DNA of 64,000 nucleotides from a virus: the IMG/VR virus record IMGVR_UViG_3300049995_000120, positions 16,506 through 80,505 of that record; one strand, 5' to 3'. Shown in pieces: positions 4,991-28,530 of this stretch. Position numbers and translations under genes: made by a program. The notes beneath the pieces were generated by a model. The model was not told the origin of the DNA. It worked only from the letters and a program-made list of their open reading frames with translations, and did not search any database. Each line of letters opens with the position of its first letter. Position 1 is the first letter of the stretch.

Positions 4991-5018
4991 CGGCGGCAGC
5001 AATGCCGCCGCTTTTTTT
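4991..5018 (+). terminator. rho-independent terminator
   Basis: CGGCGGCA-GCAA-TGCCGCCG followed by CT7. Confidence 0.8.
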
Positions 5019-5107: not shown

Positions 5108-5881
5108 CTAGGAGAAGGGGCAGACCTCAAGCAGTAAATCACCCAACTCTTGGAAGTCAACTCCTGGACCCTGCCAGTCATAGACCCGATTGAATATTGC
5201 ATTCCATGGGATTTTGGTGTCGCGAATCTGCACTGGTTCAGGCCAGTTGCGCACAGTTGAAAGATAATAATCGATGAATTTGAATCCGCCTCCATGCACA
5301 CTATCACTGAATTCAACCCATACCGCCGGCACATTATAGGCTTCTGCCACGATCAGGATATGCAGGGAGGACGTGACCACAGTAGCGGCGTTGGATATCT
5401 TCTGCAGCAGAAATTCAGCATCCTTCATGGGGGAAAGAACTTCCCAATCTGGTCCCCAGTCATATTTGACGGCGAGGCCCACATCCGTGTAATGGGGAAC
5501 AACTAGCGACTTTTCTTCAACGTTATGCGGACGGGGGTAAGAATAAAAACGAGGTAGCAGGATAGCCGGATCTGCAAAAATGGCATTGGATATATCCACT
5601 CCGTATTTGCGTAGCAAATATGCCGTGAGAGGCCCGCGCACTGCTCGCGCTATCGTAGTTTTATCGCAATGTTCAGGTGGCAGATCTTCGGCCATGACGC
5701 CTGTTCCCCAAAGGATATTCCCTGGATAGGCACAATGAGATAGAGAACCAATCGCCAGGATGGTTCCGAGTACTTTACTCGGTTCTGACCAGTTTGGTTC
5801 GTGTCCTGTAATCGCCTTGTGGAGCAGAGGATTAAGGGCATCGCCAAAGTTGGTACTTCGTATCCAGAAAAGATTGCTCAT
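5108..5881 (-). CDS. polysaccharide pyruvyl transferase family protein
   Basis: NFGD, IGS, WGTG, AVRGPLT, DPA, VPH, SSLH..I.AEAY..P and FKF.DYY motifs (ExoV/PssM-like). Confidence 0.85.
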   Translation of the reverse strand: MSNLFWIRSTNFGDALNPLLHKAITGHEPNWSEPSKVLGTILAIGSLSHCAYPGNILWGTGVMAEDLPPEHCDKTTIARAVRGPLTAYLLRKYGVDISNAIFADPAILLPRFYSYPRPHNVEEKSLVVPHYTDVGLAVKYDWGPDWEVLSPMKDAEFLLQKISNAATVVTSSLHILIVAEAYNVPAVWVEFSDSVHGGGFKFIDYYLSTVRNWPEPVQIRDTKIPWNAIFNRVYDWQGPGVDFQELGDLLLEVCPFS

Positions 5882-6002
5882 GGAATACTCCTCTCTGCCT
5901 AATTATATACAATATTCATTGTAAAGTCAATGAGAATCATCAATTAAGCCTTGACGGGAAATTGGTCAGCGAGTAAAATGGGATTTGACGGGAAAGGAGT
6001 TT

Positions 6003-6698
6003 ATGCCCTTGCGTGTAGTGGTCCCAACTTGTGACAAGTATCTCTGGCTCGTACAGCCATTCACCTATTTATTCAATCGTTACTGGTCAGAACTACAACC
6101 AGTAGTGGTGGCTGGTTTTTCTCGCCCGGACTTCCATCTTCCCCCGAACTTTACGTTTTACCAGATCGCCCGGGAAGATTATCCAGCCAACAAATGGAGC
6201 GATGGCATGATTAAGTTGCTCCAGAATCTTCCCGATCAGCATTTTATTTTGCTCCTAGAAGACTACTTCCTTTGCCGCACGGTTGATCATACTGCCGTTG
6301 ACTCCTGTTATGAATATATAAAAGATAAACCAGAAGTATTACGTATTGACTTGACGGCTGATCGCCTGTACGCCGGCGGTATGTTTGACTTGGAATCATA
6401 TGGCCGCATGGATATCATTGAGACTCCTCATGGTACTCCCTATCAGTTCAGCACTCAGGCTGGAATCTGGAACAGGGATCGTCTCCTTGAAATCCTTATA
6501 CCAGGTCGCTCCGCTTGGGAGTCAGAGTTATATACGCCCGTACCAGATACATTGCGCATCTTGGGAACACGTCAGTATCCAGTACGCTATGTGAATGTGA
6601 TGAAAAGCGGCCAATTGCAACGAGCCGAACTGGATAAGTTAGATCCCGAGCATCAGGAATATCTGGCGAAGCAAGGATGGTTTTCCCGCAATGCCTAA
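6003..6698 (+). CDS. glycosyltransferase (GT-A-like)
   Basis: VVVPTCDKY, WS..M, LLLEDYFL and STQAGIW..W..E motifs; AAGGAG SD. Confidence 0.65.
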   Translation: MPLRVVVPTCDKYLWLVQPFTYLFNRYWSELQPVVVAGFSRPDFHLPPNFTFYQIAREDYPANKWSDGMIKLLQNLPDQHFILLLEDYFLCRTVDHTAVDSCYEYIKDKPEVLRIDLTADRLYAGGMFDLESYGRMDIIETPHGTPYQFSTQAGIWNRDRLLEILIPGRSAWESELYTPVPDTLRILGTRQYPVRYVNVMKSGQLQRAELDKLDPEHQEYLAKQGWFSRNA

Positions 6699-7146
6699 TG
6701 GACGCGTTCACTCCCTGGCCTGTCTTGTTACTTCTGCTAGCGCAGGAGGGTTCGTGTATTTCAATAAGTTATCAACTCCGCTAACTTCCTGCCATGTAGC
6801 ACTTGGCGCGCTACTTGGAATCCTGATTAGTCCAGACCTGGACTTGATGGAGACGGGTAATTACTCGCTTGTAATTCTGCGGAAGCGATCCGATTTCCTT
6901 GCTAGACTCTGGCGCTGGTTCTGGTGGCCTTATGCTAGACTATCTAGGCATCGTGGTATATCCCACTGGCCGATCATTGGCACCCTGTTGAGATTTGTTT
7001 ATTGCATTGTCCCGGCAATAATTGTTACGGCAATACTAAACCTGTATCTATTAGAAGTACGGCTGAATCTGGATGTCTTACTCCCTTATTTGATCGGCCT
7101 TATGCTGTCCGATTTCGTGCATACGACATTGGACGTGGTGTTTTGA
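6691..7146 (+). CDS. DUF2227-type metal-binding membrane protein
   Basis: MP.GR.H, SPDLD, WWPY...HRG.SHWPIIGT..R..Y and H...D motifs. Confidence 0.8.
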   Translation: MPNGRVHSLACLVTSASAGGFVYFNKLSTPLTSCHVALGALLGILISPDLDLMETGNYSLVILRKRSDFLARLWRWFWWPYARLSRHRGISHWPIIGTLLRFVYCIVPAIIVTAILNLYLLEVRLNLDVLLPYLIGLMLSDFVHTTLDVVF

Positions 7147-7156
7147 AAGGATAACT

Positions 7157-7408
7157 ATGGCAGGCAGGCGCAGGAATCCGGTAAAAACCTTGTTTCGAGT
7201 AGAGCATCTAACGCCCAACTCGGTTATTATTATCAAAACCGGGTCTGCAATAGACAACAAACAGCAGATGGGTGCGCTGGCTAATGAACTGGTCAAGCGC
7301 GACCTGCGTACTGTCCTCATTCTGCGTCTGCCCACTCTGGATGAATTTCAAACCCTAGACGAAAAGCAGATGAATCAGTTAGGATGGTTCAAGAAGGAGG
7401 TTATATGA
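7157..7408 (+). CDS. hypothetical protein
   Basis: 83-aa ORF with SD, in operon. Confidence 0.55.
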   Translation: MAGRRRNPVKTLFRVEHLTPNSVIIIKTGSAIDNKQQMGALANELVKRDLRTVLILRLPTLDEFQTLDEKQMNQLGWFKKEVI

Positions 7409-7647
7409 AAGATTATCAAAAGGAACCATCACCAATCCCCAACAAGTTGCCTTCTATGTGGGATTTGGTAATTGATGATATGCGCCACCGCGACAAGATT
7501 GGTGTTGAGACCTATGGCTGTCACTTGCAACCATTCAATGGGCGGAAGGCATTGCGTGATGCGTATTATGAGTGTCTGGATATGGCAGTTTATCTACGCC
7601 AAAAGATTTGGGAGGAAGAAAATGACGACAAGTCGAAATCCGCGTAA
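7405..7647 (+). CDS. small all-alpha protein, NTP-pyrophosphatase-like
   Basis: R..IG.ETYG..L...NGR..L.DAY.E.LD.AVYL pattern common in phages. Confidence 0.5.
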   Translation: MKDYQKEPSPIPNKLPSMWDLVIDDMRHRDKIGVETYGCHLQPFNGRKALRDAYYECLDMAVYLRQKIWEEENDDKSKSA

Positions 7648-8110
7648 TACGGCTGTCTTTATTCTGGCTGTTTATGATCAGCCTGCGCAACCAGAATATC
7701 AAGATAACCTCGCCAAGACCATCAAGTCTGTGCAGGCTCTGGGATTCGAGCCGTATATTGTTTCTCCCCACGATGAACTGCTGATTGAATCCAATCTGTT
7801 TATCAAGTTGGAAGCCCCCTGCGTCCCGGTTGAAATGACTAAACCCTATTGGCGCGAATTCAATTTCATCCTGATGGATAATGTCGTTTTTGATGATGCA
7901 AACCTGAAGGAGATGTTTGATGCTCCTGATCTACCGCGTCTGTTTACTACCATTCGACTCTGCATGGTCGGTATTGGATTTGAAAATGATGGGACAGATT
8001 GGACCGGATGGATCAGGAACATTAAGTCTGAAACTTTGCACGTAGTCCCTACAATGCTGTTGAGTATGTCCAAGAAAATGAAATTCCCATGCCCAAATAC
8101 GACGCCGTAA
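7622..8110 (+). CDS. hypothetical protein (possible degenerate GT-A/nucleotidyltransferase)
   Basis: in operon; ILMDNVVFDD acidic motif. Confidence 0.4.
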   Translation: MTTSRNPRNTAVFILAVYDQPAQPEYQDNLAKTIKSVQALGFEPYIVSPHDELLIESNLFIKLEAPCVPVEMTKPYWREFNFILMDNVVFDDANLKEMFDAPDLPRLFTTIRLCMVGIGFENDGTDWTGWIRNIKSETLHVVPTMLLSMSKKMKFPCPNTTP

Positions 8111-8976
8111 TCTCTGCTTCTTGCTTCATGTCGCCGCATAATGCGATCCGGATGCTGAAAAGTATCTCTGTCATCCAGGGGCGTGTACTAACGATCATTA
8201 CCTGCCCGCGTCTGGAAGATGCTTATGCTGTCAGGGATGCCCTGCAGAACACGGATATTCCGCTCATCATTCTTCACTCCACCTTTCAGCCGCGCTATTT
8301 CTGCCAATCGCTTGCTTTCGTTTATTGTGAGTTGAATGATATTTCTGGTCGGTATTTCGCGCTGGCTGATGATGATATTGAATTTATAAAAGGTGATATC
8401 TTCCCGCATTTGGATAACTGTCCGTCTTTTTCTGTGTTTGGTTTTTCTTCTAATCAAGTACGTTATGGTTTTGCTCTCTGGCATGGCAAGAATCAATATG
8501 GCGAGTACGTAGAAAATCCACTTTGGTTAGACGCGCACAATATGTGGAGCAAATGGGCAAGCAATCTGATTGGCGGTCTGCCTGATAGTTCCGCGTCATC
8601 TCCAAATGCAGCGTTTGTGGAAGTAGAATATCAACACCGCCTGCGTTTATTCACTGGCGAGCCTACTATTGGTTGCACTTATGCGCCCATTCATCATTAT
8701 ACGCGCATCGATGACTTAGAAACCCGGCGCGGGACACATAATATCGTTATTGAAGGATTCAAGCTATGGCAGGAAAAATTCGGTCTGGCTCTCAATGGAC
8801 AATTGTTCAATGAGAGTATAATGAACTGGGATGATGTTGACCAAGTATTGCGCGCACCGCATTTCATCCCGCAATATAAACAACACTTGGTATTCGGTGG
8901 CTTGTGGACAGATTGGCAAGCAATATGGGATCGATCAAGCCATGCAATTACCAAAATTTACGAAAGATTGAAATAG
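8089..8976 (+). CDS. glycosyltransferase (GT2/GT-A-like)
   Basis: YFALADDDIEF DxD motif, GGLPD, EVEY..R and IHH motifs. Confidence 0.6.
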   Translation: MPKYDAVISASCFMSPHNAIRMLKSISVIQGRVLTIITCPRLEDAYAVRDALQNTDIPLIILHSTFQPRYFCQSLAFVYCELNDISGRYFALADDDIEFIKGDIFPHLDNCPSFSVFGFSSNQVRYGFALWHGKNQYGEYVENPLWLDAHNMWSKWASNLIGGLPDSSASSPNAAFVEVEYQHRLRLFTGEPTIGCTYAPIHHYTRIDDLETRRGTHNIVIEGFKLWQEKFGLALNGQLFNESIMNWDDVDQVLRAPHFIPQYKQHLVFGGLWTDWQAIWDRSSHAITKIYERLK

Positions 8977-8984
8977 GAGGCTAT

Positions 8985-9722
8985 ATGCCAGAAACAAAAT
9001 TCGTCATGGGTCGTGAAATGACTATCTATGATAATGGTCAAATTTCGATCAGCAAACAAAACTATACTCGTTTCACGGGTGGTGCGCTCAAACACGCACA
9101 CGAATGCGGTTATTTGTATGATTGGGAGGTTCTGGTACTCCAGGCATTCGTGCGCGGTCTTCCTGAAAAAGCGGTTCTTGTGAATATCGGTGCAGGAGCC
9201 GGGGCGAGTGGTCTGGCAATGGCTGAGGCGCGCATGGATCTTATCCCACATATTTACACCATTGATGTTGTGAGGAATGGGGGACCAAGTAGCGGATTGG
9301 TCTCAGAGGCGCTTGCTTTCGTGCGCTATAATACTCCACTGGTAAACCAGATCGAGGGTGATAGTTATGATGTGGGTATGAGTTGGACACGTGGCCCAGT
9401 GGATCTGGTATTTGTGGATGGTGATCATACCTTTTACGGGGTTGAGCGCGATATCAAGGCATGGCTACCCCGCGTCAAACATGGCGGATTTATGCTCTTC
9501 CACGACTACGCACATGAACAATGGTCGGGAGTCAAGCCAGCGGTGGATGCGTTGATGGCTGGTCATGCGCAGATTATGGTCGTTGATCTTCTGGCGGTAT
9601 ACCGTATTGTTTGGCCCGTACAAATTCAAGAGTCCGCACCCGATGAAGGATTCACTCCTGTTCATATACCTAAAGAAAGAAAACCAAGAAAGGCGAAGGT
9701 GAAAGTTGCCAAAGAAGAGTGA
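8985..9722 (+). CDS. class I SAM-dependent methyltransferase (Methyltransf_24-like)
   Basis: VNIGAGAGAS, GDS, DLVFVDGDHTF.GV..D..AW.P.VK.GG.M.FHD motifs. Confidence 0.85.
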   Translation: MPETKFVMGREMTIYDNGQISISKQNYTRFTGGALKHAHECGYLYDWEVLVLQAFVRGLPEKAVLVNIGAGAGASGLAMAEARMDLIPHIYTIDVVRNGGPSSGLVSEALAFVRYNTPLVNQIEGDSYDVGMSWTRGPVDLVFVDGDHTFYGVERDIKAWLPRVKHGGFMLFHDYAHEQWSGVKPAVDALMAGHAQIMVVDLLAVYRIVWPVQIQESAPDEGFTPVHIPKERKPRKAKVKVAKEE

Positions 9723-10042
9723 ACTCATAGCTGGCTTTGCGTGGGCTAGCGTCTGTGTCATCCCCTGGCTGTGGATATTGAATAGAATCCCATTCAGCGC
9801 AGGTAGCATTTTTGCCGTGATCTTTTTCCTGGTTATCGCCATAATGGCCAGTATGTATCAAGCCGGGACAGAGATCAAGAGGAAACTATGACCTACATTC
9901 AACGCATTGGCTTGCTTATAGTGCTATTGGCCGTTATCACTGCGCTTGGAAATCCAACCCCTTCCATTACGGGTCAACTTGAATTTGTTTTTTTGTGGAT
10001 AATTGGGTGCGCATTGTTTCTTCATGAACCGAGGAAAGAAAA

Positions 10043-13000
10043 ATGACCTTGCGCGTAAAAATGATACCAGAAATAAAACAGGTGGTGACTGGGGAAAGTG
10101 GTATTCACACCATCGTGCGCAAATACGCACAATATTTTCCGAAATATGGCATGGAGATTGTGGGTAAGGATGCCGATGATTTTGATATATTTGTCGTACA
10201 TGCCGGAATGATGGAAACCCCTTACCCTGCCAATGTGGCCGCGGTGAGCATGATGCACGGTTTGTATTGGACCGCTATGTACAATGCCTCAAATTGGGAA
10301 TGGAAAGCAAACGCAGATGTGATTAACTCCATGCGCCATGCGCATGTTATAACCTGTCCTAGTACCTGGGTGGCCGAAACCATTCAGCGCGATATGCACC
10401 GCAATCCTGTAGTCGTCCCACATGGCGTTGACTGGCAGGAATGGCAGCATAACGAACCCAAAGAGGGGTATGTCATCGGCTACGCCAAGAACCGAAAGGG
10501 AATGGATGTTTGCAATCCCGACTTTCTGAACCCCCTGGCCTATGCTTTCCCCGAAACCCACTTTGCCGCTACCTTCGCCCCCGACAATCCCGAACCCAAT
10601 ATCCGAGAATTCGGGGTTCTTCCGTACCCGCAGATGAAACAACTGGTACAGCGCGCCGAAGTGTTTGTTTCGTGTGTGCGTGAGACCTTCGGGATCGCTA
10701 TCCTGGAAGCGATGGCGGCGGGACTTCCGATCGTGGGCTGGCGCGAGGGCGGCATCGTGGATCTCGTGGAACATGGTGTAAATGGCTATCTCGCAAAACC
10801 AGGCGACATGGGGGATCTTTTCCAGGGGCTGGATTACTGTATGCAGCACCGCTCCCAATTGGGCGCTAACGGGCGCGAGATGGCGAAGAAATGGACGTGG
10901 GATGCCGTCTGCGAAAACCTGCATGATGTGTTCCTGTACGCAATAGCCAAGGCTAAAGAACCGCCCACCTGCGCGATTGTCATCCCTTCATATAAGTATG
11001 CGAAAGTGGTTGGGGGGGCAATTGAAAGCGCCATGCAGCAGACCTATGAGATGCTGACCGATATCGTGGTGGTCGATGACTGCTCGCCCGATGAAGGTGA
11101 GACTGAACGTTTGGTTAAAACTTATATCCAGCGCGATAAGCGCGTGAAATACATACGCCTGCCGGTAAATTCAGGTGTGGCTGTAGCGCGCAACACGGGT
11201 ATCTACAATGTAGACACCAAGTATATCTGCTGCCTGGATAGTGATGACAAGATTTTGCCGCGTTTCCTGGAGGCCTGTATTCCGCCCCTTGAAAAAGATA
11301 GGTCTCTTGGGATAACGTTCTCCAGCATGGAGGCGATTGCCCTGGATGGTAGGGTATATGAGACGCGCTGGCCACCAGATATGCCGCTTTTCGATCAGCA
11401 ACAGTCCGGCAAGAATCAAGTCCCAACCTGCTGTGTCTTCCGCCGCGAGTTGTGGAATAATTTGGGCGGCTATCGTGCGCGCTATGCCCCCGAGGGCTGT
11501 GGCTCCGAGGACGCCGAGTTTTTCCTGCGCGCCGGCGCAAATGGATGGGGTTATCAAAAGGCAACCACAGCGCGTATGTTCATCTACAGTCTGGGGGGGA
11601 ATACCACGGGGCGCAAGGACTACCGCGAGCCTAACTGGTTATCCATGCACCCTTGGACCAAGGATGGCCAGCATCCGGTAGCGTCTCTGGCGACTCCCAA
11701 GCGCGGAAGCCATCCTGCCAGGTTCTACGATAGTCCCGCCATCAGTGTGGTAATCCCCGTCGGGCCTGGGCACGAGTTTGATATCGTCAATGCTCTGGAT
11801 AGCCTGGAAGCGCAAGACTTCCGCATGTGGGAAGCCATTATTGTTCTGGATAACGTAGATGAAGAATTGATTTCACCCGTATTGAAATCTTATCCCTATA
11901 TTCGTGTTTTCAGAACGAAAGCAAATGCACAGGGGACAGGGGCCGCGCGCAACCTAGGTGCATCTCAGGCGCGCGCTGGATTGCTTGTTTTCCTGGATGC
12001 GGATGATTACCTGCTCCCTGAAGTGCTATCATCTATGCTGGACGAGTTCAGCAAGGGTGAGGCTATCGTCTATGGCGATTGTCAGGCAAACGCCATTGTT
12101 GATGATGTCAAGAAACTAGATGAACGTATGCAGCGCCAGATTCTGGAACGGAACCAAAAGACCAAGAAAACCATCATAAGATTCCCGGCAGCGGATTACA
12201 ACTGCGAACTCGCCCAATCCATGCCCAACAGCGATGACCCCGATAGCCTCTATCTGGTGGCGCATATTACCTGTCTGATCCCAAAACTCTGGCACGATGC
12301 GATTGGCGGGTTTGATGAGAAGATGGTATCATGGGAAGATGTGGACTGGCATTGGCGATTATCCAAGGCCGGCTACTGTTACCGCCGCCTGCACAAAGAT
12401 TTGTTTATGTACCAGTTATCTTCAGGAGGGCGCAGAGAGAAAGGCCGGGAAAATTGGAAGTCATTGTTGCAGTATCTGAAAGGAAAATACAAGGAGATGC
12501 CTAATGTGCCATGTCGATCTTGTGGCGGCAGGGGTACGCCTCCGCCCATAAAACAAATTGTTGATCAAGGAAGCGAGGAGAAGAAAGTTATGTTCTCTGA
12601 TGAGAGTTTAATCAAATGCGAGTATATGCACCCCAACCGGGGGCAACATTCGGTGATCGGTGCCGCCACGCGCACCAAATATGGTCAAAGGGCCGGCGGT
12701 GATGTGTTCTTTGTCCACCGCGACGACGTGGCTGCGCAGCCTATGTATTTCAGACCCATCCAATTGGATAATATATCGGTGCCGCAACCGACTGTCGCAC
12801 CACCCCCGCCTCCGCCAAGTGTGGTTGTCAACCCTGCTCAACCCGCGTCGGCACCCGTGGAGGAAACACCTGCAACCACTGAATCGATCCCTAAAAACCT
12901 GTTGACAGATGTGGAGAAACCCGAAGGGGAGAAACCCGCACCTGCTCCGGAGCCGATACCAGATATACCGGCAGGCGAGATCAAGGCGACCATAATTGGA

Positions 13001-13195
13001 GAATATGATGAACTGGATTTGCGTCTGATCCCGAGCATCACGCCGGCTATTGCGAAGCAGATGCGAGAAATTGGCTTGACCACGCCCAGAGCCATCATGG
13101 ATTCTGGACCGGAAGGATTACAGGCCATCAAAGGCGTAGGAGAGACACGCTCCCTAGTCATCGTCCAGTACGTAGCCAAAAAAGCCGGATTATGA
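10043..13195 (+). CDS. multidomain glycosyltransferase GT4 + GT2 + GT2 + CxxC + HhH
   Basis: GT4 ETFGIAILEAMAAG; GT2 IVIPSY/VVDDCSPD/ARNTG/CLDSDD/ED; second GT2 VVIPV/ARNLG/FLDADD/GGFDE/WED; C-terminal LQAIKGVG HhH. Confidence 0.9.
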   Translation: MTLRVKMIPEIKQVVTGESGIHTIVRKYAQYFPKYGMEIVGKDADDFDIFVVHAGMMETPYPANVAAVSMMHGLYWTAMYNASNWEWKANADVINSMRHAHVITCPSTWVAETIQRDMHRNPVVVPHGVDWQEWQHNEPKEGYVIGYAKNRKGMDVCNPDFLNPLAYAFPETHFAATFAPDNPEPNIREFGVLPYPQMKQLVQRAEVFVSCVRETFGIAILEAMAAGLPIVGWREGGIVDLVEHGVNGYLAKPGDMGDLFQGLDYCMQHRSQLGANGREMAKKWTWDAVCENLHDVFLYAIAKAKEPPTCAIVIPSYKYAKVVGGAIESAMQQTYEMLTDIVVVDDCSPDEGETERLVKTYIQRDKRVKYIRLPVNSGVAVARNTGIYNVDTKYICCLDSDDKILPRFLEACIPPLEKDRSLGITFSSMEAIALDGRVYETRWPPDMPLFDQQQSGKNQVPTCCVFRRELWNNLGGYRARYAPEGCGSEDAEFFLRAGANGWGYQKATTARMFIYSLGGNTTGRKDYREPNWLSMHPWTKDGQHPVASLATPKRGSHPARFYDSPAISVVIPVGPGHEFDIVNALDSLEAQDFRMWEAIIVLDNVDEELISPVLKSYPYIRVFRTKANAQGTGAARNLGASQARAGLLVFLDADDYLLPEVLSSMLDEFSKGEAIVYGDCQANAIVDDVKKLDERMQRQILERNQKTKKTIIRFPAADYNCELAQSMPNSDDPDSLYLVAHITCLIPKLWHDAIGGFDEKMVSWEDVDWHWRLSKAGYCYRRLHKDLFMYQLSSGGRREKGRENWKSLLQYLKGKYKEMPNVPCRSCGGRGTPPPIKQIVDQGSEEKKVMFSDESLIKCEYMHPNRGQHSVIGAATRTKYGQRAGGDVFFVHRDDVAAQPMYFRPIQLDNISVPQPTVAPPPPPPSVVVNPAQPASAPVEETPATTESIPKNLLTDVEKPEGEKPAPAPEPIPDIPAGEIKATIIGEYDELDLRLIPSITPAIAKQMREIGLTTPRAIMDSGPEGLQAIKGVGETRSLVIVQYVAKKAGL

Positions 13196-13240: not shown

Positions 13241-13276
13241 GCCGAACTGACAGTTAGTCAGTTCGGCTATTTATTT
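13241..13276 (+). terminator. terminator-like hairpin
   Basis: GCCGAACTGAC-AGTTA-GTCAGTTCGGC then TATTTATTT. Confidence 0.6.
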
Positions 13277-13603
13277 ATGCAGATTATCATATTCCTGACC
13301 TTCATTCTTGCCACTTGGCGCGTTGCGCATCTATTGGCGCATGAGGACGGGCCTTTAGCCATCTTGGTTACTCTGCGTTATGGATTGGGAGTGCGGTATA
13401 CTCCTGCCCCGCCTTATGAAAAATATGGCACGAGTATATGGTCAAAAGCAATCATCTGCGTATGGTGTAATTCAGTATGGATTGGGTTAATCTATACCAT
13501 AATGTATATTATATGGCAACCTTTATGGTTGATCGCCCTCCCCTTCGCCTTGAGCGCGGGGGCAATCTTCTTGGAAGAGGTTTGTGGATTAAAGGAAACC
13601 TAA
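13277..13603 (+). CDS. DUF1360-like membrane protein
   Basis: LATWR..HL...EDGP and C.WC.SVW motifs with TM helices. Confidence 0.7.
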   Translation: MQIIIFLTFILATWRVAHLLAHEDGPLAILVTLRYGLGVRYTPAPPYEKYGTSIWSKAIICVWCNSVWIGLIYTIMYIIWQPLWLIALPFALSAGAIFLEEVCGLKET

Positions 13604-14881
13604 ATGGCGCGCGCAAGTATCCCTACCATTTTGGCTCTTGACAGGTTTCAAAAGATAATGGGAATCATCCCGCCTCATTTTGGGCAGGGGACTTCTGGTA
13701 CTCGCTTTACCAATTCTTCCTGCAGTGATGTGTGGTATCAATATAGTTGGCAAGCTCGTGACCAGGTAGCGCGCGAAGATCTGGCACTGGAGATACATGC
13801 CGCCGAAGAAGAACTGGCTGTCGCCATGGGTTATTATCCAGGCCCCAAATACACGGTGGAAGAGGACTATGATTATCCCCGCTTCCACCGCCGTGAACTC
13901 TGGCAGACGGACATGGGCAACGTGCGTTTCGCCCCCAAGAGTATCAATCTGCGGCATGGACGCTTCATAGGACCCGGGCGACGCGCTGTAACGCTGATCG
14001 GGACGGCAACGACAGCCGGCGGAACATTGGTTTATGCAGATCTGGATGGTGATGGATTCGTTGAAAATGCCAGGATTACGATACCTACCACAGTGACAGA
14101 CATTAATGAAATAAAAGCCTTTTTTCCTGGCTATGGTGGTGTCCCTGAATGGGAAATACGCACCGAGAAAGCTAAGAGCCTTGCTGGTGGCAATGTAGTG
14201 ATGGACTTTTATGTCTGGCAGTTGGTCAGCCCTGCTTTGTGGGAAGCGTTCCCGTCTGCAGATGGTATTTATCCGGTAGACTTGACGGTTCTCGCAAACC
14301 TGTTGACTTCAGTACAGGTCTATAGAGTTTACCGAGATACTACCCAGACCAGCGTTCAATTCTTATGGAATCCCGATGCGGGTTGTACCTTCTGCGGTGG
14401 GGCTGGTTGTCTGCAGTGTGGTTATGATACGGTGGATGGTTGTATTTATGCCCGTGATTTTTATACGGGAATTGTAGTGCCTGCTCCCGCATCTTATGAT
14501 GCGGCCAGCGGTGATTGGGTCAGCGTAACTTGCGATGCCTGCCGAGATCCTGATATGGTCAAGTTATGGTATGAAAGCGGCGAGATCGATGAGCGTTATT
14601 TATCTGGTTATACCCATGACCCACTTTCAGAAGATTGGGCGCGCATCATTGCCTATATGGCAACCGCGCGTTTTGAACGTCCATTCTGCACCTGCGGAAA
14701 TTCTGAGGCGCTGGCGGAATGGCTTCGAGAAGATTTGGCCTTTACCCCGCAGGGGGCAGGATCGAGGTTTACAACTGAAGACGTTACATCTTCCCCGTTT
14801 GGCACCCATCGTGGGGAAGTGATGGCCTGGATGAAGATCAAGAAACTCAAGAAACGTCGCATGGAAGGAATAACAATATGA
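13604..14881 (+). CDS. putative head-tail adaptor/neck protein, Cys-rich
   Basis: position at the start of the tail operon; AEEELA..MGY helix resembles adaptor proteins. Confidence 0.5.
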   Translation: MARASIPTILALDRFQKIMGIIPPHFGQGTSGTRFTNSSCSDVWYQYSWQARDQVAREDLALEIHAAEEELAVAMGYYPGPKYTVEEDYDYPRFHRRELWQTDMGNVRFAPKSINLRHGRFIGPGRRAVTLIGTATTAGGTLVYADLDGDGFVENARITIPTTVTDINEIKAFFPGYGGVPEWEIRTEKAKSLAGGNVVMDFYVWQLVSPALWEAFPSADGIYPVDLTVLANLLTSVQVYRVYRDTTQTSVQFLWNPDAGCTFCGGAGCLQCGYDTVDGCIYARDFYTGIVVPAPASYDAASGDWVSVTCDACRDPDMVKLWYESGEIDERYLSGYTHDPLSEDWARIIAYMATARFERPFCTCGNSEALAEWLREDLAFTPQGAGSRFTTEDVTSSPFGTHRGEVMAWMKIKKLKKRRMEGITI

Positions 14882-15174
14882 AAAAGGTAAAATGGACTTC
14901 GCCAGATGGGTATATTCACTGCCGGATGTTACCGGATAGTGAGCCTGACGAGTCTGCTGAAATGGGCATTCCGTGTGAACCCCCCGACATCAATACAATT
15001 GATTGGGAGGGGGTGAAGCGCGATTTACATAATCTTCTGGTAGAGCGTGAACTGATCGGTATGGCTGCCGTCAACCGCGCGCCAGAACTACTCAGGAGTG
15101 CGGCAACGCAGGTGTTGTATAAACGCCTGATCGCGCTCTATCAAACTCCTCTAAAGGAGGAATCAAATGGCTAA
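14878..15174 (+). CDS. hypothetical virion-associated protein
   Basis: coupled ORF inside the structural operon. Confidence 0.55.
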   Translation: MKKVKWTSPDGYIHCRMLPDSEPDESAEMGIPCEPPDINTIDWEGVKRDLHNLLVERELIGMAAVNRAPELLRSAATQVLYKRLIALYQTPLKEESNG

Positions 15175-16672
15175 AACTCCTCTTACTAGCGGCAAGACCC
15201 GAGTATTTATTATACCGGGTCGCGCTCGTGGAGATCACTCGCCATCCTATCAGTCCTGCCAGCGCATGACCGGTATTGCCTGGGGTCAGGGCGACATCAC
15301 GCGCGTGGAGTGTCCTTCGGATACTCAGTTAGACGCGTTTGAGGAATCAGCGAAGATCAAGGGGTCGAAAGACCGCCCCACAACTTCATTGGAAGGTCGC
15401 TTCCCCTTGGATGTCAAGAGTTATATCCTTGGCCTTGTACGTAAGGGTTGCTCGGTCGATGTCCAGCTTAATGCCGGCGAATGCTCTGACCCCCGTATCT
15501 TCACTGCCTTCAAAAAGAAATTGATCTTGGAGGAAGTGGATTTCACAAACTATACCACGGATGACTTGGGCGCGTTAACCTCTGGTGATCGTGCCGCGGT
15601 AAACGAGACCGGCGAAATCAGCGCAAAAGACTTGTATGAAGTAGTTCCACTGTCTTTCGCTGAACGCGCCGGTAATCTTGTTACCAACGAAGTCCTGGAT
15701 GTGGTGATCTGTGATGCTGTATCTTGCGGGGAATGTGAAGAGGAATCCGACGGTTGCCAGAAGATCTTTGCGATCACGAAATCAGCCGGCGGTTCACCTA
15801 CCACTCCAGCAGATATCGTGTTCTCCCTCAATGGTGGGGCGACGTGGTATGCGCATGATATAGATTCTTTAGGCATAGCCGAAGACCCAGATGAGTTAGA
15901 CTGCCTAGGTAACTATATCGTGGTGGTTAGTGCAGCTTCCTGCTCTTTGCATTATGCACTGAAGAGCGAATTTGATGGTGTAACAGATCCAACTTTCACC
16001 GAAATCGCTACTGGCTTTGTGGTCGGTGGTTGCCCAGCCGCGATCAAGAGCGTAGGAAACTATGCCTTTATTGCAGGCAAAAACGGCTATGTCTATGGAA
16101 CGTCAGACCCGACTGCGGGTGTGAGCGTCCTGGATGCCGGCGTGGCAACAGCCGATGATCTTTACGCGGTGGATGCACTGGATTCAGAATTCGCTGTAGC
16201 AGTGGGCGAGAACAGTGCCATCATCAAAACTGAAGATGGCGTTACCTGGTCTGCTGTAGGTGGGCCGCCCGGACTCGGTATCGGCGTAACCTTTTACACA
16301 GTAGCCCTCAAGAGCCAGACAGAATGGTGGATTGGCACCAGCAATGGTCGTCTGTACGCCACTTATGACGGGGGCGTTACCTGGGTACTCCAGGCATTCC
16401 CCGGCTCTAGCACTGGTGTCGTGTACTTTGTCACCTTTGCCACCGACTCAGTCATGTACCTGGCGCATCAAACCGCCTTGACCAAAGGGCGCATCCTGCG
16501 CTCCTACGATGGCGGACACGAATGGGTGGTTCTCCCTGAAAGCACCGGAACAATTCCGGCTAATGACCGCATCAACGCACTGGCGGTCTGCACACTTGAT
16601 CCGAACATGGTGGTGGGCGTCGGTTTGGCCGATCTCTCTGCCGATGGCTTCATCGTGGTTGGTTCAGGCTAA
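15167..16672 (+). CDS. major tail tube protein with C-terminal BNR/Asp-box beta-propeller
   Basis: strong AAGGAGG SD; lies directly upstream of chaperone and tape measure; Asp-boxes SLNGGATW, TEDGVTW, TYDGGVTW, SYDGGHEW. Confidence 0.65.
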   Translation: MAKTPLTSGKTRVFIIPGRARGDHSPSYQSCQRMTGIAWGQGDITRVECPSDTQLDAFEESAKIKGSKDRPTTSLEGRFPLDVKSYILGLVRKGCSVDVQLNAGECSDPRIFTAFKKKLILEEVDFTNYTTDDLGALTSGDRAAVNETGEISAKDLYEVVPLSFAERAGNLVTNEVLDVVICDAVSCGECEEESDGCQKIFAITKSAGGSPTTPADIVFSLNGGATWYAHDIDSLGIAEDPDELDCLGNYIVVVSAASCSLHYALKSEFDGVTDPTFTEIATGFVVGGCPAAIKSVGNYAFIAGKNGYVYGTSDPTAGVSVLDAGVATADDLYAVDALDSEFAVAVGENSAIIKTEDGVTWSAVGGPPGLGIGVTFYTVALKSQTEWWIGTSNGRLYATYDGGVTWVLQAFPGSSTGVVYFVTFATDSVMYLAHQTALTKGRILRSYDGGHEWVVLPESTGTIPANDRINALAVCTLDPNMVVGVGLADLSADGFIVVGSG

Positions 16673-23369: not shown

Positions 23370-24472
23370 TGACCACAGAGTATGAATTAACTCTATATGA
23401 CCCGCGCGGTACTGCTATTACCAAACAACTGACCGCATTTTCATCTCTGGAATACACGCGCAAGATCAACGAGGTTGGATCTTTAGTTCTAAAACTCCCA
23501 TCTCAGTTTCCTTTGTGGTGGTTCGGGCGTGATTATCGCATTGAGGTCTGGCGCTCCATTGATGGACGCCCTGCCTACCTTGACGGGGATACACAGTGGT
23601 TGATCCGCAAGATCAATATCTCACGCGAGGGCGGAGATCGCGTCCTGAATGTCACGGCATATGACCTGAACCATCTCCTGAAACGGCGTATCGTGGCCTA
23701 TGATGCAAAATCAGTATATGCCGATAAATCCGATTACGCCGATGACATGATGAAAGAAATCTTCTCTGAGAATTTTGGGATTGGTTGTATTGATGCTCTT
23801 CGCGATTGGAGCGAGTGGATTTCCATTCAACCCGATTTTGGCCTCGCCATGCCGATCGAGAAAGAGTTCGCGCGCCGCACGGTGTTCAACATCTTCCAGG
23901 AAATGGCGGAATATAGTTACCAAAACGGTATCTATCTGGCTTTTGACATCGTGCGATTGACCAGCAGTATGGTAGAGTTTCGCACTTATGTCAACCAGCG
24001 CGGGGTCGATCATAGTAAGGGCAGCCTATCTCCGCTTCTCTTCGGGGCAAAGTATGGCAACCTTACCAATGACGACTATCTGGATGATAGTAGCGAGGAA
24101 GCCACCTTCATATATGCTGGTGGCAAGGGCGAGGATGCAGCACGAGTGGTGGAAGACGCACAAGATGACGCGCGCATAGGGGTTTCTCCCTTCGGGCGGA
24201 TTGAATATTTCATCGATGCGCGCGAGACGGATGTAGCGGCAGACGTAAAGGACGAAGCCGAAGCCGAACTGCGCAAGCGCGTTCCCAAGCGAATCATCTC
24301 TGGCAAGGTCGCAGATATAGATGGTTGTCGATATGGTCTGCATTATAAAATGGGGGATAAGGTCACGGTGGAAACCGATGAGGTATCCATGGATGCGTAT
24401 ATTGATTCTGCACACGTCACGGTTTCTGGTAGTACGGAAACCATTGATGTTGGACTGGAGGCAACATGGTAA
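23369..24472 (+). CDS. baseplate hub / Gp37-like minor tail protein
   Basis: follows Dit; YAGGKGE..R and YG.HY..GD.VTV motifs of siphoviral Gp37-like proteins. Confidence 0.75.
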   Translation: MTTEYELTLYDPRGTAITKQLTAFSSLEYTRKINEVGSLVLKLPSQFPLWWFGRDYRIEVWRSIDGRPAYLDGDTQWLIRKINISREGGDRVLNVTAYDLNHLLKRRIVAYDAKSVYADKSDYADDMMKEIFSENFGIGCIDALRDWSEWISIQPDFGLAMPIEKEFARRTVFNIFQEMAEYSYQNGIYLAFDIVRLTSSMVEFRTYVNQRGVDHSKGSLSPLLFGAKYGNLTNDDYLDDSSEEATFIYAGGKGEDAARVVEDAQDDARIGVSPFGRIEYFIDARETDVAADVKDEAEAELRKRVPKRIISGKVADIDGCRYGLHYKMGDKVTVETDEVSMDAYIDSAHVTVSGSTETIDVGLEATW

Positions 24473-28110: not shown

Positions 28111-28530
28111 ATGGAACTCACACTCAGAGAAATCGTAAGCGCCGGCGAAGCCATCGGAAAGATGGCACAGAAAAAGAACTTGAAGCCGAAAGTTTTTTAC
28201 TGGCTGACGGTGACACAGCGCAAACTGCAGAATAGTCTGGATGCCTTCCAGCAGTCCCGCATGATGACCTTGTATAAGTACGCTAATCCTGTAGAAAAGA
28301 CGGACAACTTTGAATTCAAAGACAAAGAGGCGCGCAAAAAGTTCAATGAAGAGATGGACGAGTTTATGAAGCAAACAGAGAGCCACGAGATCAACAATAT
28401 CTTGTTCTCTGTTTTATACTGCGATCCCTCTCTTGAACTGACCCCGGCCCTGGTGACTATGCTTGGACCTTTAATAGTGATGGACGATTTACCAGACGGT
28501 GAAAAGGCCGGTTTGAATGAACCAAAGTAA
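28111..28530 (+). CDS. hypothetical protein (fibre chaperone-like)
   Basis: AAGGAG SD; helical. Confidence 0.55.
   Translation: MELTLREIVSAGEAIGKMAQKKNLKPKVFYWLTVTQRKLQNSLDAFQQSRMMTLYKYANPVEKTDNFEFKDKEARKKFNEEMDEFMKQTESHEINNILFSVLYCDPSLELTPALVTMLGPLIVMDDLPDGEKAGLNEPK

What the first reader, a model, noticed from the sequence alone, without database searches (positions are those of the whole stretch)
5108..13195. Phage-encoded glycan assembly line beside the neck/tail operon, centred on a GT4-GT2-GT2-CxxC-HhH fusion
Seen: within 8 kb lie a pyruvyl-transferase-family gene, two stand-alone GT-A-like genes, a Methyltransf_24-like enzyme, a DUF2227 protein and a 1050-aa protein with three GT domains, a Pro-rich linker and a helix-hairpin-helix. 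The cluster sits directly upstream of the structural genes. Known: some actinophages glycosylate virions using GTs encoded near structural genes, T-even GT-B enzymes glucosylate DNA, and HhH binds nucleic acid non-specifically. Inference: this is a complete pathway for a multi-sugar, pyruvylated and methylated glycan. Its target is either the virion (synteny) or DNA/packaging heads (HhH tether). Five or more GT domains plus decorating enzymes is an unusually elaborate set for a phage.
Basis: partly seen in the sequence, partly recalled or inferred. Interest (0 to 1): 0.8.

Follow-up and report, generated by a model that had tools for sequence, protein, structure and literature searches.

The report
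Phage glycan island with triple glycosyltransferase
An uncultured sediment phage carries a real sugar-building gene cluster centred on a three-enzyme fusion protein that nearly every phage of its large, uncultured lineage keeps between its head and neck genes; it most likely sugar-coats the virus particle, but no chemistry has been done.

Summary
The 1050-aa protein is GT4-GT2-GT2, a CxxC knuckle, a small beta domain, a Pro-rich linker and an (HhH)2 domain. All three catalytic motif sets are invariant in 25 relatives. The 237-aa ORF is a GT-A fold (Z 15.1). The 295-aa ORF is probably GT-A, on weaker evidence. The pyruvyl-transferase, Methyltransf_24 and DUF2227 matches pass Pfam cut-offs.

New here:
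- The fusion is a near-universal core gene of a large uncultured phage lineage. Of 45 relatives sampled through a tail gene, 43 carry it.
- It lies after a conserved 485-aa head-block protein and before a head-to-tail adaptor.
- Between these lies a hypervariable island of 0-10 genes: amino-sugar, sulfo-, methyl- and fucosyl-type enzymes.
- No cultured phage and no isolate genome has the fusion.
- Complete relatives lack thymidylate-synthase homologues, and the priming transferases and flippases searched for.

Most likely the cluster glycosylates virion proteins (about 0.55). DNA or host-envelope targets are less likely. The target remains untested.

This scan has already reported the same kind of island on other DNA (e1-5873547, e1-5926989, e1-2456806, e1-3439312). 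I class it as a new variant of a known kind.

The parts
4991..5010 (.). Bidirectional terminator-like hairpin closing the pyruvyl-transferase unit
   Evidence: 8-bp stem with 7 GC pairs and a T run, read on both strands
5108..5881 (-). Polysaccharide pyruvyl-transferase family protein (257 aa); accessory, divergently transcribed
   Evidence: PF04230, 8.8e-9, 36.1 bits against a cut-off of 25.3. A homologue occurs only in L003. Promoter-like TTGACT-17-TATAAT at 5930-5902.
5951..5979 (+). Promoter-like site in front of the plus-strand glycan operon
   Evidence: TTGACG-17-TAAAAT, 10 of 12 matches. This is a consensus match only; the count over the whole region is not above chance.
5985..6698 (+). 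Stand-alone GT-A fold glycosyltransferase (237 aa; probable start 6003); conserved partner of the fusion
   Evidence: AlphaFold pLDDT 94.3. Foldseek top matches are GT-A enzymes. VIA Z 15.1 to B4GALNT1. A homologue lies upstream of the fusion in 45 of 81 loci, on the same strand. D93 is invariant in the E/D-D-Y motif.
6691..7146 (+). DUF2227 hydrophobic protein (151 aa); accessory
   Evidence: PF09988, 4.1e-17. Found only in L003 among the relatives.
7157..7647 (+). Two small ORFs (83 and 87 aa) of unknown function
   Evidence: No Pfam match. One has a match in a single locus.
7472..8110 (+). ORF of 212 aa (probably about 160 aa, starting at the Met near 7622); unknown function
   Evidence: No Pfam, PHROG or NCBIfam match. 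The L003 counterpart is 160 aa.
8089..8976 (+). Probable second stand-alone GT-A glycosyltransferase (295 aa; probable start 8128)
   Evidence: Atlas structure search: all 10 rows shown are GT2 families, TM 0.61-0.68, from a low-confidence model. DDD-IEF is invariant. It is fused in frame to Methyltransf_24 in L003 and apparently in P0122, judged by eye from the alignment. No sequence-level GT match.
8904..9722 (+). SAM-dependent methyltransferase, Methyltransf_24 family (probable start near 8985)
   Evidence: PF13578, 8.8e-18. A homologue lies just upstream of the fusion in 31 of 81 loci.
9706..10046 (+). Two tiny hydrophobic ORFs (61 and 52 aa, two predicted TM helices each) joined by ATGA overlaps to each other and to the fusion start
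   Evidence: Read from the sequence. Hydropathy scan done. Similar ORFs occur in only a few relatives.
10043..10930 (+). Fusion protein, GT4 (GT-B, retaining type) domain
   Evidence: PF00534, PF13692 and PF13439. E214 and E222 (EX7E) are invariant in 25 relatives.
10961..11563 (+). Fusion protein, first GT2 (GT-A) domain
   Evidence: PF00535 and PF13641. D399, D401, D402, E489 and D490 are invariant.
11732..12412 (+). Fusion protein, second GT2 (GT-A) domain
   Evidence: PF10111. D652, D654, D655, W764, E765 and D766 are invariant.
12512..12757 (+). Fusion protein, CxxC knuckle and small conserved beta domain of unknown fold family
   Evidence: Two Cys are invariant in 43 sequences, with motif Y-x-HPN-x-G-x-H...YG-x-R-x-GG-x-F-x-V-x-x-x-D. 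No Pfam or PDB match. 1107 representative proteins carry it.
12758..12997 (+). Fusion protein, Pro-rich low-complexity linker
   Evidence: Translation. It is variable in length and sequence among relatives.
13010..13195 (+). Fusion protein, C-terminal (HhH)2 domain and stop codon
   Evidence: HHH_5 at 22.8 bits, below the cut-off. The family profile matches RadA/Rad51 N-terminal (HhH)2 at 4.9e-11, and Pol X, NusA, ComEA and RNAP alpha-CTD. PF14520 is precomputed on many homologues.
13241..13267 (+). Strong terminator-like hairpin after the fusion gene
   Evidence: 11-bp stem with 7 GC pairs, followed by a T-rich tail
13277..13603 (+). Conserved 108-aa membrane protein (three hydrophobic helices; weak DUF1360 and PHROG 781 matches)
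   Evidence: Homologues follow the fusion in 44-47 loci, and their start often overlaps the fusion stop. It is also present in L162, which has no island.
13604..14881 (+). Probable head-to-tail adaptor (425 aa) with a large inserted beta domain
   Evidence: AlphaFold pLDDT 87. The best VIA matches are portal adaptor and neck proteins: GTA 6tba Z 6.9, then phi812, Mycofy1, DT57C, Mu and Bxb1. The terminal helices are what align. The Z values are modest.
15167..16672 (+). 501-aa structural-operon protein: unknown N-terminal 200 aa plus a C-terminal Ycf48/BNR-like beta-propeller
   Evidence: The family profile matches Ycf48 at 5.4e-16 over aa 330-462. It is followed by a 195-aa protein and a 1090-aa protein with weak tape-measure-like matches. 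A tail-tube role is inferred from gene order only.

Best explanation
The cluster is a virion-glycosylation module.

Its invariant core is one soluble polypeptide. It carries one retaining GT4 and two inverting-type GT2 catalytic domains. In most relatives, a stand-alone GT-A enzyme and a Methyltransf_24 methyltransferase accompany it.

Using host sugar nucleotides, these enzymes would build a short hetero-oligosaccharide or polymer in the cytoplasm. The acceptor would be one or more particle proteins, made from the flanking head and neck/tail genes.

Lineage-specific tailoring genes then diversify the glycan. In this phage they are a second GT-A, a pyruvyl-transferase and the methyltransferase. 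In relatives they are amino-sugar synthesis enzymes, sulfotransferases and fucosyltransferase-like enzymes.

The C-terminal beta domain, flexible Pro-rich linker and (HhH)2 domain would hold the enzyme on phage DNA or on an assembly partner at the site of particle assembly.

Shown here: the domain content, the intact catalytic motifs, the phage-specific distribution and the fixed position in the morphogenesis block.

Inferred: the acceptor, the sugars, the timing of expression and the role of the HhH tail.
For: 1. Enzymes. Pfam domains pass their cut-offs. The catalytic motifs of all three GT domains are invariant across 25 relatives of 44-82% identity. The 237-aa partner is GT-A.

2. Position.
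- In 81 viral loci the order is: head-block proteins, variable island, fusion, 108-aa protein, adaptor-like 425 aa, 98 aa, 501 aa, 195 aa.
- Every tblastn match to these window proteins lies on the fusion's strand.
- In the smallest versions the fusion starts 55-62 nt after the 485-aa head-block gene. The adaptor-like gene follows 109-112 nt after the fusion.

3. Near-universal. Relatives were sampled independently through the 501-aa gene. Of 45 with at least 7 kb upstream, 43 carry the fusion.

4. Phage-specific.
- At least 112 relatives lie in IMG/VR contigs.
- In 185,579 species genomes the long matches (nine loci) lie only on MAG contigs of nine unrelated lineages, most of them short. Matches in isolate genomes and in long MAG contigs cover only the GT2 region.

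5. The island is hypervariable, as expected of an exposed glycan. It holds 0-10 genes from 94 gene clusters. They include a DegT aminotransferase (32 loci), dehydratases/epimerases, sulfotransferases (13 loci), a GT10-like enzyme (11 loci) and FkbM and O-methyltransferases.

6. Alternatives lack their known prerequisites.
- No thymidylate-synthase homologue in this record or in five relatives, four of them at least 90% complete.
- No C5-methylase in this record.
- No Bac_transf, WecA-type transferase, Wzx or GtrA, with working controls.

7. Precedent. Glycans sit on the capsid and tail-tube subunits of mycobacteriophages (Freeman et al. 2023, as cited in PMC12619734).
Against: - No acceptor is identified. 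No Ser/Thr-rich tails are seen on the head or tail proteins.
- The one island-less relative, L162, shows no telling deletion in the 485-aa protein.
- That 485-aa protein could not be shown to be the capsid protein. It has no Pfam, PHROG or PDB match.
- In this phage the head block is inverted and about 9 kb away.
- The glycan operon appears to have its own promoter-like site and a strong terminator. Co-expression with structural genes is therefore not shown.
- A DNA-binding-type domain is not expected on a protein glycosyltransferase.
- Conserved and sporadic small membrane proteins flank the fusion. This hints at work at the membrane.
- L162 shows that the island is dispensable for building a particle.
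Confidence: 0.55

Rival explanations
1. DNA hypermodification. The (HhH)2 domain, or the basic tail that replaces it in some relatives, tethers the three-GT enzyme to phage DNA. The enzyme then builds a multi-sugar, methylated or pyruvylated glycan on a nucleobase, which protects the genome from host nucleases.
For: - The C-terminal domain matches DNA-binding (HhH)2 domains.
- Relatives that lack it, such as P0013, P0021 and P0100, end in Lys/Arg-rich tails.
- Phage GT-A and GT-B enzymes related to LPS and teichoic-acid enzymes do put mono- to tri-saccharides on DNA. Some such clusters lie beside structural genes (preprint 10.1101/2023.12.21.572611).
- DNA methylase genes occur in some islands (cluster 43).
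Against: - The DNA glycosylation routes described in the papers read here start from a hydroxylated pyrimidine. That base is made by a thymidylate-synthase homologue or by a 5mYOX/TET enzyme.
- PF00303 is absent from this record and from five relatives, four of them at least 90% complete, with a working control.
- PF00145 is absent from this record.
- About a fifth of the fusions, for example the 877-879-aa forms, have no C-terminal appendage at all.
- The gene sits in the morphogenesis block, not among the replication genes.
- The TET search was uninformative because its control was silent.
Confidence: 0.1
2. Membrane-associated glycan synthesis aimed at the host envelope, or at a free polysaccharide. 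The fusion works at the inner membrane with the small membrane proteins. It extends a host lipid-linked intermediate and so alters the surface polysaccharide late in infection, for example to block superinfection or to free progeny from debris.
For: - The closest cellular families of the GT2 domains act on undecaprenyl-linked glycans: TuaG, WcaA, PglI and EpsD.
- GtrB-like PHROG matches were found.
- A conserved three-helix membrane protein follows the fusion, and its start often overlaps the fusion stop.
- This phage adds two tiny TM ORFs joined by ATGA overlaps and a DUF2227 membrane protein.
- Pyruvyl-transferases are known from exopolysaccharide and cell-wall glycan pathways (Pfam family description).
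Against: - The fusion has no hydrophobic segment by eye.
- No priming phosphoglycosyl-transferase, Wzx flippase or GtrA is present in this record or in four relatives that are at least 90% complete.
- The Pfam scans of the main island gene clusters found no transporter, polymerase or ligase.
- The 108-aa protein and the fusion each occur without the other, in L162 and in the L022 group.
- The full fusion is absent from isolate genomes and from host polysaccharide loci.
- Serotype-converting GT genes are known from temperate phages during lysogeny. This lineage was found on no isolate chromosome.
Confidence: 0.15
3. Virion-carried enzyme. The beta domain and the DNA-binding tail load the enzyme, or a C-terminal fragment made from an internal start, into the head together with the DNA. 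It would then be injected and would modify a host target early in the next infection.
For: - The gene lies between the head and neck genes.
- The tail is of a DNA-binding type.
- Many library proteins begin exactly at one of two conserved internal Met residues of the C-terminal module.
- A GAGGAG lies 9 nt before the Met-850 codon.
Against: - There is no direct evidence.
- The short library proteins may be gene-calling artefacts on fragmentary contigs. One attempt to find such a gene in a viral contig failed.
- The co-evolving sugar-tailoring genes fit a structural glycan better than an injected effector.
Confidence: 0.07

Closest known systems
Mycobacteriophage virion glycosylation (Freeman et al. 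2023, Cell Host Microbe, as cited in PMC12619734)
   Same: Phage-encoded glycosyltransferases are thought to decorate the phage's own capsid and tail proteins in the cytoplasm.
   Different: - The enzymes are unrelated. tblastn of the fusion against 50,697 phage records gave no match covering more than 38% of the query and none from a mycobacteriophage.
- Here one polypeptide carries three GT domains plus a DNA-binding-type tail.
- The module is a lineage-wide core gene with a hypervariable tailoring island.
- No C-terminal acceptor tails are seen, and no chemistry exists.
Chlorovirus PBCV-1 capsid glycosylation enzymes such as A064R (two glycosyltransferase domains plus a methyltransferase domain); from my own knowledge, not checked here
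   Same: - A virus-encoded, cytoplasmic, multi-domain glycosyltransferase is combined with sugar O-methylation.
- A GT-A-methyltransferase fusion exists in relative L003 and apparently in P0122, by eye from the alignment.
   Different: - That system belongs to a eukaryotic giant virus.
- The domain families and their order differ.
- It has no HhH tail.
- Homology was not tested.
Phage DNA sugar hypermodification clusters (T4 alpha/beta-GT; MT/5mYOX- or ThyS-linked GT-A/GT-B enzymes, preprint 10.1101/2023.12.21.572611; arabinosyl-5hoC, PMC13326640)
   Same: These are phage GT-A and GT-B enzymes recruited from LPS and teichoic-acid families. They make mono- to tri-saccharides and sometimes lie near structural genes. 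A nucleic-acid-binding domain would fit this role.
   Different: The precursor-making enzymes that define those pathways were not found. The position in the genome is within morphogenesis, not replication.
Multi-domain polysaccharide glycosyltransferases/polymerases of bacteria (for example K4CP chondroitin polymerase, WbdA-type O-antigen enzymes; the latter from my own knowledge)
   Same: Several GT domains sit in one chain. Tandem GT-A domains can polymerise alternating sugars. K4CP is among the structural neighbours of the 237-aa GT-A.
   Different: - Those enzymes act on lipid-linked or free glycans inside host polysaccharide loci with export genes.
- The full GT4-GT2-GT2-beta-HhH architecture was found only on viral or probably mis-binned contigs.

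Membership tests
CAZy-type GT4 (Pfam Glycos_transf_1 / Glyco_trans_1_4) | Profile match above the curated cut-off and the EX7E catalytic motif | tested here: met
   PF00534 scores 59.2 bits (cut-off 26.4) and PF13692 scores 57.8 bits. E214 and E222 are invariant in 25 sequences.
GT2 (Pfam Glycos_transf_2 and relatives), two copies | Profile match above the cut-off, plus a DxD and a downstream acidic motif in each copy | tested here: met
   PF00535 scores 162 bits over 2 stretches and PF10111 scores 63.9 bits. D399/D401/D402 with E489/D490, and D652/D654/D655 with E765/D766, are all invariant.
GT-A fold glycosyltransferase (237-aa ORF) | Nucleotide-diphospho-sugar transferase fold with an acidic metal-binding motif | tested here: met
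   The fold gives Z 15.1 to B4GALNT1 and Z 13.6 to GnT-I, with 283 Foldseek matches. D93 is invariant in E/D-D-Y. The same fold also occurs in nucleotidyl-transferases (eIF2B, HddC and KdsB in the list), so the activity itself is inferred.
GT-A fold glycosyltransferase (295-aa ORF) | GT-A fold and a DxD motif | tested here: inconclusive
   In the Atlas structure search all 10 rows shown are GT2 families, TM 0.61-0.68, but the Atlas model has pLDDT 0.53. DDD is invariant. hhalign, Pfam and PDB profile searches were all negative.
Polysaccharide pyruvyl transferase (PF04230) | Profile match above the curated cut-off | tested here: met
   36.1 bits against 25.3. Only profile positions 126-277 of 280 are matched.
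(HhH)2 DNA-binding domain | Two helix-hairpin-helix motifs recognisable by profile | tested here: met
   This protein alone scores HHH_5 at 22.8 bits, below the cut-off of 27. The profile of 14 relatives matches RadA at 4.9e-11 and 200 PDB sequences at E<=1. DNA binding itself was not tested.
Mycobacteriophage virion glycosylation system | Homology to the glycosyltransferases of those phages | tested here: not met
   tblastn against the phage collection found no mycobacteriophage record among 49 hits at E<=1e-5.
Mycobacteriophage virion glycosylation system | Glycan attached to capsid or tail-tube subunits | not testable with these tools
   This needs mass spectrometry of virions.
Phage DNA glycosylation pathways | An enzyme that makes the hydroxylated base (thymidylate-synthase homologue, or methylase plus 5mYOX/TET) | tested here: not met
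   PF00303 is absent from G000 and five relatives, four of them at least 90% complete. PF00145 is absent from G000. The PF12851 search was uninformative because its control was silent. G000 is only 72% complete.
GtrABC-type O-antigen conversion | GtrA flippase and a membrane-anchored GtrB | tested here: not met
   PF04138 is absent from five records, with a working control. The fusion has no hydrophobic segment by eye. The PHROG GtrB matches cover only about 100 residues of the generic GT2 core.

The most novel reading that the evidence does not exclude
The conserved C-terminal module (CxxC, beta domain, flexible linker, and (HhH)2 or a basic tail) makes this a DNA-tethered glycan polymerase. 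Either it builds sugar chains on phage DNA by a route that needs no thymidylate-synthase or TET precursor enzyme, or it rides into the capsid on the DNA and is delivered to the next host.
Probability: 0.1. Interest if true: 0.85.

Novelty: new variant of a known kind. Interest (0 to 1): 0.6.

Why it matters
According to the literature read here, particle glycosylation has been demonstrated in mycobacteriophages. The head-block protein family of this lineage alone has over 1,400 sequence clusters, and none is cultured. If this lineage really sugar-coats its particles, three things follow:

- Virion glycosylation would be widespread in environmental phages.
- It would use an enzyme architecture not found in any cultured phage.
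- It would come with an O-antigen-like variable locus that includes sulfation, pyruvylation and amino sugars.

That bears on phage-host recognition, on particle stability in sediments, and on how metagenomic 'auxiliary metabolic' glycosyltransferases should be read. The fusion is also a compact three-step glyco-enzyme, which makes it attractive for biochemistry.

Tried and rejected
Contexts came from the search for related loci instead.
- Alignments A2 and A3 were too divergent for a locus search. A narrower alignment, A7, worked.
- A megablast of 20 kb against phage records found nothing.
- The 485-aa head-block protein could not be identified. Pfam, PHROG, a PDB profile, PF05065, tblastn against phages and names from sources all gave nothing. 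'Capsid protein' therefore remains an inference from position and conservation.
- The 425-aa protein gave nothing in Foldseek PDB. The BFVD matches have no names.
- The small beta domain has no significant Pfam or PDB relative.
- The 295-aa ORF gave no result by profile-profile comparison to the 237-aa family or to the fusion, nor by Pfam or PDB profile.
- The TET/JBP search is uninformative because its control was silent.
- A search for a genomic context of a stand-alone C-terminal module (P0136) found nothing.
- Ser/Thr-rich acceptor tails, and a tell-tale deletion in the island-less relative L162, were looked for and not found.
- Rfam and the repeat searches over the cluster gave nothing relevant.
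- I considered and set aside the idea that the 108-aa membrane protein is a dedicated partner of the fusion. Each occurs without the other.

Full report
**What the window is.** The window is bases 16506-80505 of an 80.5-kb linear IMG/VR virus record, judged 72% complete.
- PHROG matches identify a minor tail protein (23369-24472), a tail spike (24466-26649), an endolysin (28517-29497), a DnaB-like helicase and an RNA ligase.
- The large terminase lies upstream on the minus strand (L002:7955-9757).
- No record among 50,697 phage genomes resembles the region at DNA level.
- None encodes a relative of the fusion covering more than 38% of it.
- None encodes a relative of the 489-aa head-block protein or the 501-aa protein.

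**The observation.** Pfam confirms four things:
- a pyruvyl-transferase family protein (5108-5881, minus strand);
- DUF2227 (6691-7146);
- Methyltransf_24 (8904-9722);
- in the 1050-aa protein, a GT4 domain, two GT2 domains and a sub-threshold HHH_5 match.

An alignment of 25 full-length relatives (44-82% identity) shows that every catalytic signature is invariant:
- E214/E222 in GT4;
- D399-x-D401-D402 and E489-D490 in the first GT2;
- D652-x-D654-D655 and W764-E765-D766 in the second GT2.

After the GT domains come a Cys knuckle (two invariant Cys), a small conserved beta domain, a variable Pro-rich linker and the HhH region. A profile of the last 60 residues from 14 relatives matches the (HhH)2 domains of RadA/Rad51 (4.9e-11), Pol X, NusA, RNAP alpha-CTD and ComEA. 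The HhH call is therefore sound.

The 237-aa ORF has no sequence-level annotation. It folds with pLDDT 94.3 into a GT-A fold. The best match is Z 15.1, rmsd 3.0 over 180 residues, to B4GALNT1.

The 295-aa ORF is GT-A-like only by the ESM-Atlas structure search, where all ten rows shown are GT2 families, and by an invariant DDD motif. All sequence and profile tests were negative.

So five GT domains are present. Four are firm and one is probable.

**The fusion is a widespread, phage-specific family.**
- A search of 5.8 billion proteins found 779 relatives. The 120 listed show the same core GT domain families in the precomputed Pfam lists, and nearly all cover 84-100% of the query.
- Many of these carry PF14520, and they sit on contigs of up to 113 kb.
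- IMG/VR holds at least 112 encoding loci.
- In one genome for each of 185,579 species, the nine long matches lie only on MAG contigs, most of them short. These are attributed to nine unrelated lineages, including Bathyarchaeia, Hermodarchaeota, Saccharibacteria and Desulfuromonadales. That pattern is expected for mis-binned phage DNA.
- Isolate chromosomes give only partial GT2 matches of 22-35% identity.

**Fixed position in the morphogenesis block.** I ran tblastn with the window's proteins and clustered all ORFs in 81 loci. Both give one order on one strand:
1. a 561-aa protein;
2. a 540-640-aa protein;
3. a 168-aa protein;
4. a highly conserved protein of about 485 aa;
5. a variable island;
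6. the fusion;
7. a 108-aa membrane protein;
8. the 425-aa protein;
9. a 98-aa protein;
10. the 501-aa protein;
11. a 195-aa protein;
12. long tail proteins.

- The 425-aa protein models well (pLDDT 87). Its best structural neighbours are portal adaptor and neck proteins: the GTA particle, phi812, Mycofy1, DT57C, Mu and Bxb1. The Z values are modest, 4-7. The terminal helices align around a large inserted beta domain.
- The 501-aa protein carries a Ycf48/BNR-like beta-propeller.
- In this phage the head block is present but inverted, on the minus strand upstream (L002).
- The 485-aa protein has more than 1,400 relatives, all unnamed. It could not be shown to be the capsid protein. That role is inferred from position and conservation.

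**Core and accessory genes.** The number of loci, out of 81, in which each gene was found:

| Gene | Loci |
|---|---|
| fusion | 80-81 |
| 425-aa protein | 68-70 |
| 501-aa protein | 60-61 |
| 237-aa GT-A | 44-45 |
| Methyltransf_24 | 31-32 |

- The pyruvyl-transferase, DUF2227 and the 212-aa ORF recur only in the closest relative, L003. The 295-aa ORF recurs in three loci.
- The distance from the 485-aa gene to the fusion runs from 55 nt with no gene to 8.5 kb with ten genes. In all, 94 gene clusters were seen there.
- Representatives of the commonest clusters were scanned with Pfam. They are a DegT/DnrJ/EryC1 aminotransferase (32 loci), NAD-dependent epimerase/dehydratases (14), Polysacc_synt_2 dehydratases (10), sulfotransferases (13), stand-alone GT2 enzymes, GT10-like enzymes (11), FkbM and O-methyltransferase-like proteins, and a DNA methylase.
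- In L003 the 295-aa GT-A is fused in frame to a Methyltransf_24 domain. P0122 appears to carry the same fusion, judged by eye from the alignment. This ties methylation to the glycan.

I also sampled the lineage without reference to the fusion, through the 501-aa gene. Of 45 loci with enough upstream sequence, 43 carry the fusion. One exception is a rearranged contig. The other, L162, has no island at all between the 478-aa protein and the adaptor. The module is thus strongly retained but not required to build a particle.

**Which target?** I tested the known prerequisites of the alternatives.

DNA glycosylation. The routes described in the papers read here begin from a hydroxylated pyrimidine. 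It is made by a thymidylate-synthase homologue or by a 5mYOX/TET enzyme (preprint 10.1101/2023.12.21.572611; PMC13326640).
- PF00303 is absent from this record and from five relatives. Three are complete with terminal repeats, one is 90% complete and one is 87% complete. The control worked.
- PF00145 is absent from this record.
- The TET search cannot be read because its control was silent.

Lipid-linked surface glycans.
- Bac_transf, WecA-type transferases, Wzx and GtrA are all absent from five records, with working controls.
- The Pfam scans of the main island gene clusters found no transporter, polymerase or ligase.

Against a purely cytoplasmic picture:
- a conserved three-helix membrane protein follows the fusion, and its start often overlaps the fusion stop;
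- this phage adds two tiny TM ORFs joined by ATGA overlaps to the fusion start;
- it also adds DUF2227.

However, the 108-aa protein and the fusion each occur without the other.

The position between the head and neck genes, the lineage-wide retention, the O-antigen-like variability and the precedent in mycobacteriophages together make virion protein glycosylation the best reading. I put it at about 0.55.

No acceptor was found. There are no Ser/Thr-rich tails, and L162 gives no informative difference.

**Transcription signals in this phage.** Consensus scans place divergent promoter-like sites at 5902-5979. They place a strong hairpin with a T-rich tail at 13241-13267, just after the fusion. 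They place a bidirectional hairpin at 4991-5010. If these sites are real, the glycan genes form their own unit, and co-expression with the structural genes is not shown. Over the region, the count of promoter-like matches is not above chance.

**The C-terminal module.** The CxxC-beta domain has no Pfam or PDB relative. It is found in 1,107 representative proteins at E<=0.001.
- By my count, about 40 of the best 150 begin exactly at the conserved Met before the CxxC.
- By my count, about 24 begin at a second conserved Met before the beta domain.
- In the window a GAGGAG lies 9 nt before the second Met codon, 12590.

These may be separate genes, products of internal starts, or gene-calling artefacts on fragmentary contigs. 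One attempt to find a genomic context failed. Relatives without HhH end either right after the beta domain or in Lys/Arg-rich tails.

**Comparison with what is known, and novelty.** The idea of phage-encoded particle glycosylation is known. The enzymes here are unrelated to those of mycobacteriophages. The architecture was found in no cultured phage and no isolate genome. This scan has already reported islands of the same kind, and at least one related fusion, in other genomes. I class the finding as a new variant of a known kind. The biochemical target is still open.

Noticed in passing
L002:1425-9757 (record bases upstream of the window): The head block (terminase, 561-aa, 638-aa, 168-aa and 489-aa proteins) lies on the minus strand here. 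In relatives the matching genes sit on the same strand, directly upstream of the glycan island. This phage therefore carries an inversion or rearrangement of its head module.
   Followed up: partly
L003:10001-13848 and L003:4444-5574: In the closest relative the fusion is split into a 318-aa GT4 gene and a 732-aa GT2-GT2-C-terminal gene. A 241-aa ORF with no Pfam match lies between them. Four other loci also have a separate GT4 gene. The same island holds an IS605 OrfB/TnpB-like gene (OrfB_IS605 plus Cas12f1-like TNB).
   Followed up: partly
window 15167-16672: The conserved 501-aa protein combines an unannotated N-terminal 200 residues with a Ycf48/BNR-like beta-propeller and several conserved Cys. 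By gene order it could be a tail-tube protein with a propeller decoration.
   Followed up: partly
window 13604-14881: The adaptor-like 425-aa protein is two to three times the size of most of the solved adaptor and neck proteins it matched. It carries a beta-domain insertion of about 250 residues and a conserved Cys cluster (C-x-C...C-x-x-C).
   Followed up: partly
window 12497 and 12590 (codons 819 and 850 of the fusion): Two Met residues, conserved across relatives, precede the CxxC and the beta domain. GAGGAG lies 9 nt before the second. Dozens of library proteins start exactly at one or the other. This suggests an internal start or a separately encoded C-terminal module.
   Followed up: partly
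window 9706-10046: Two tiny ORFs (61 and 52 aa), each with two predicted TM helices, are chained by ATGA overlaps into the fusion start. They are not conserved in most relatives.
   Followed up: partly
L162:4554-11449: One lineage member has no glycan island and no fusion between its 478-aa head-block gene and the adaptor. It is a natural 'empty site' and useful for comparison.
   Followed up: partly
L084-L092 (genome contigs): Long matches to the fusion sit on MAG contigs, most of them short, assigned to nine unrelated bacterial and archaeal lineages. These are probably phage contigs mis-binned into MAGs.
   Followed up: no
L002:10801-14328: A 1175-aa minus-strand protein with two Laminin_G_3 (concanavalin-like lectin) stretches lies beside the terminase block.
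   Followed up: no
L013:5186-5914 and 12 other loci: Sulfotransferase-domain genes (PF00685) lie inside the islands of 13 relatives. This implies sulfated glycans in some members of the lineage.
   Followed up: no
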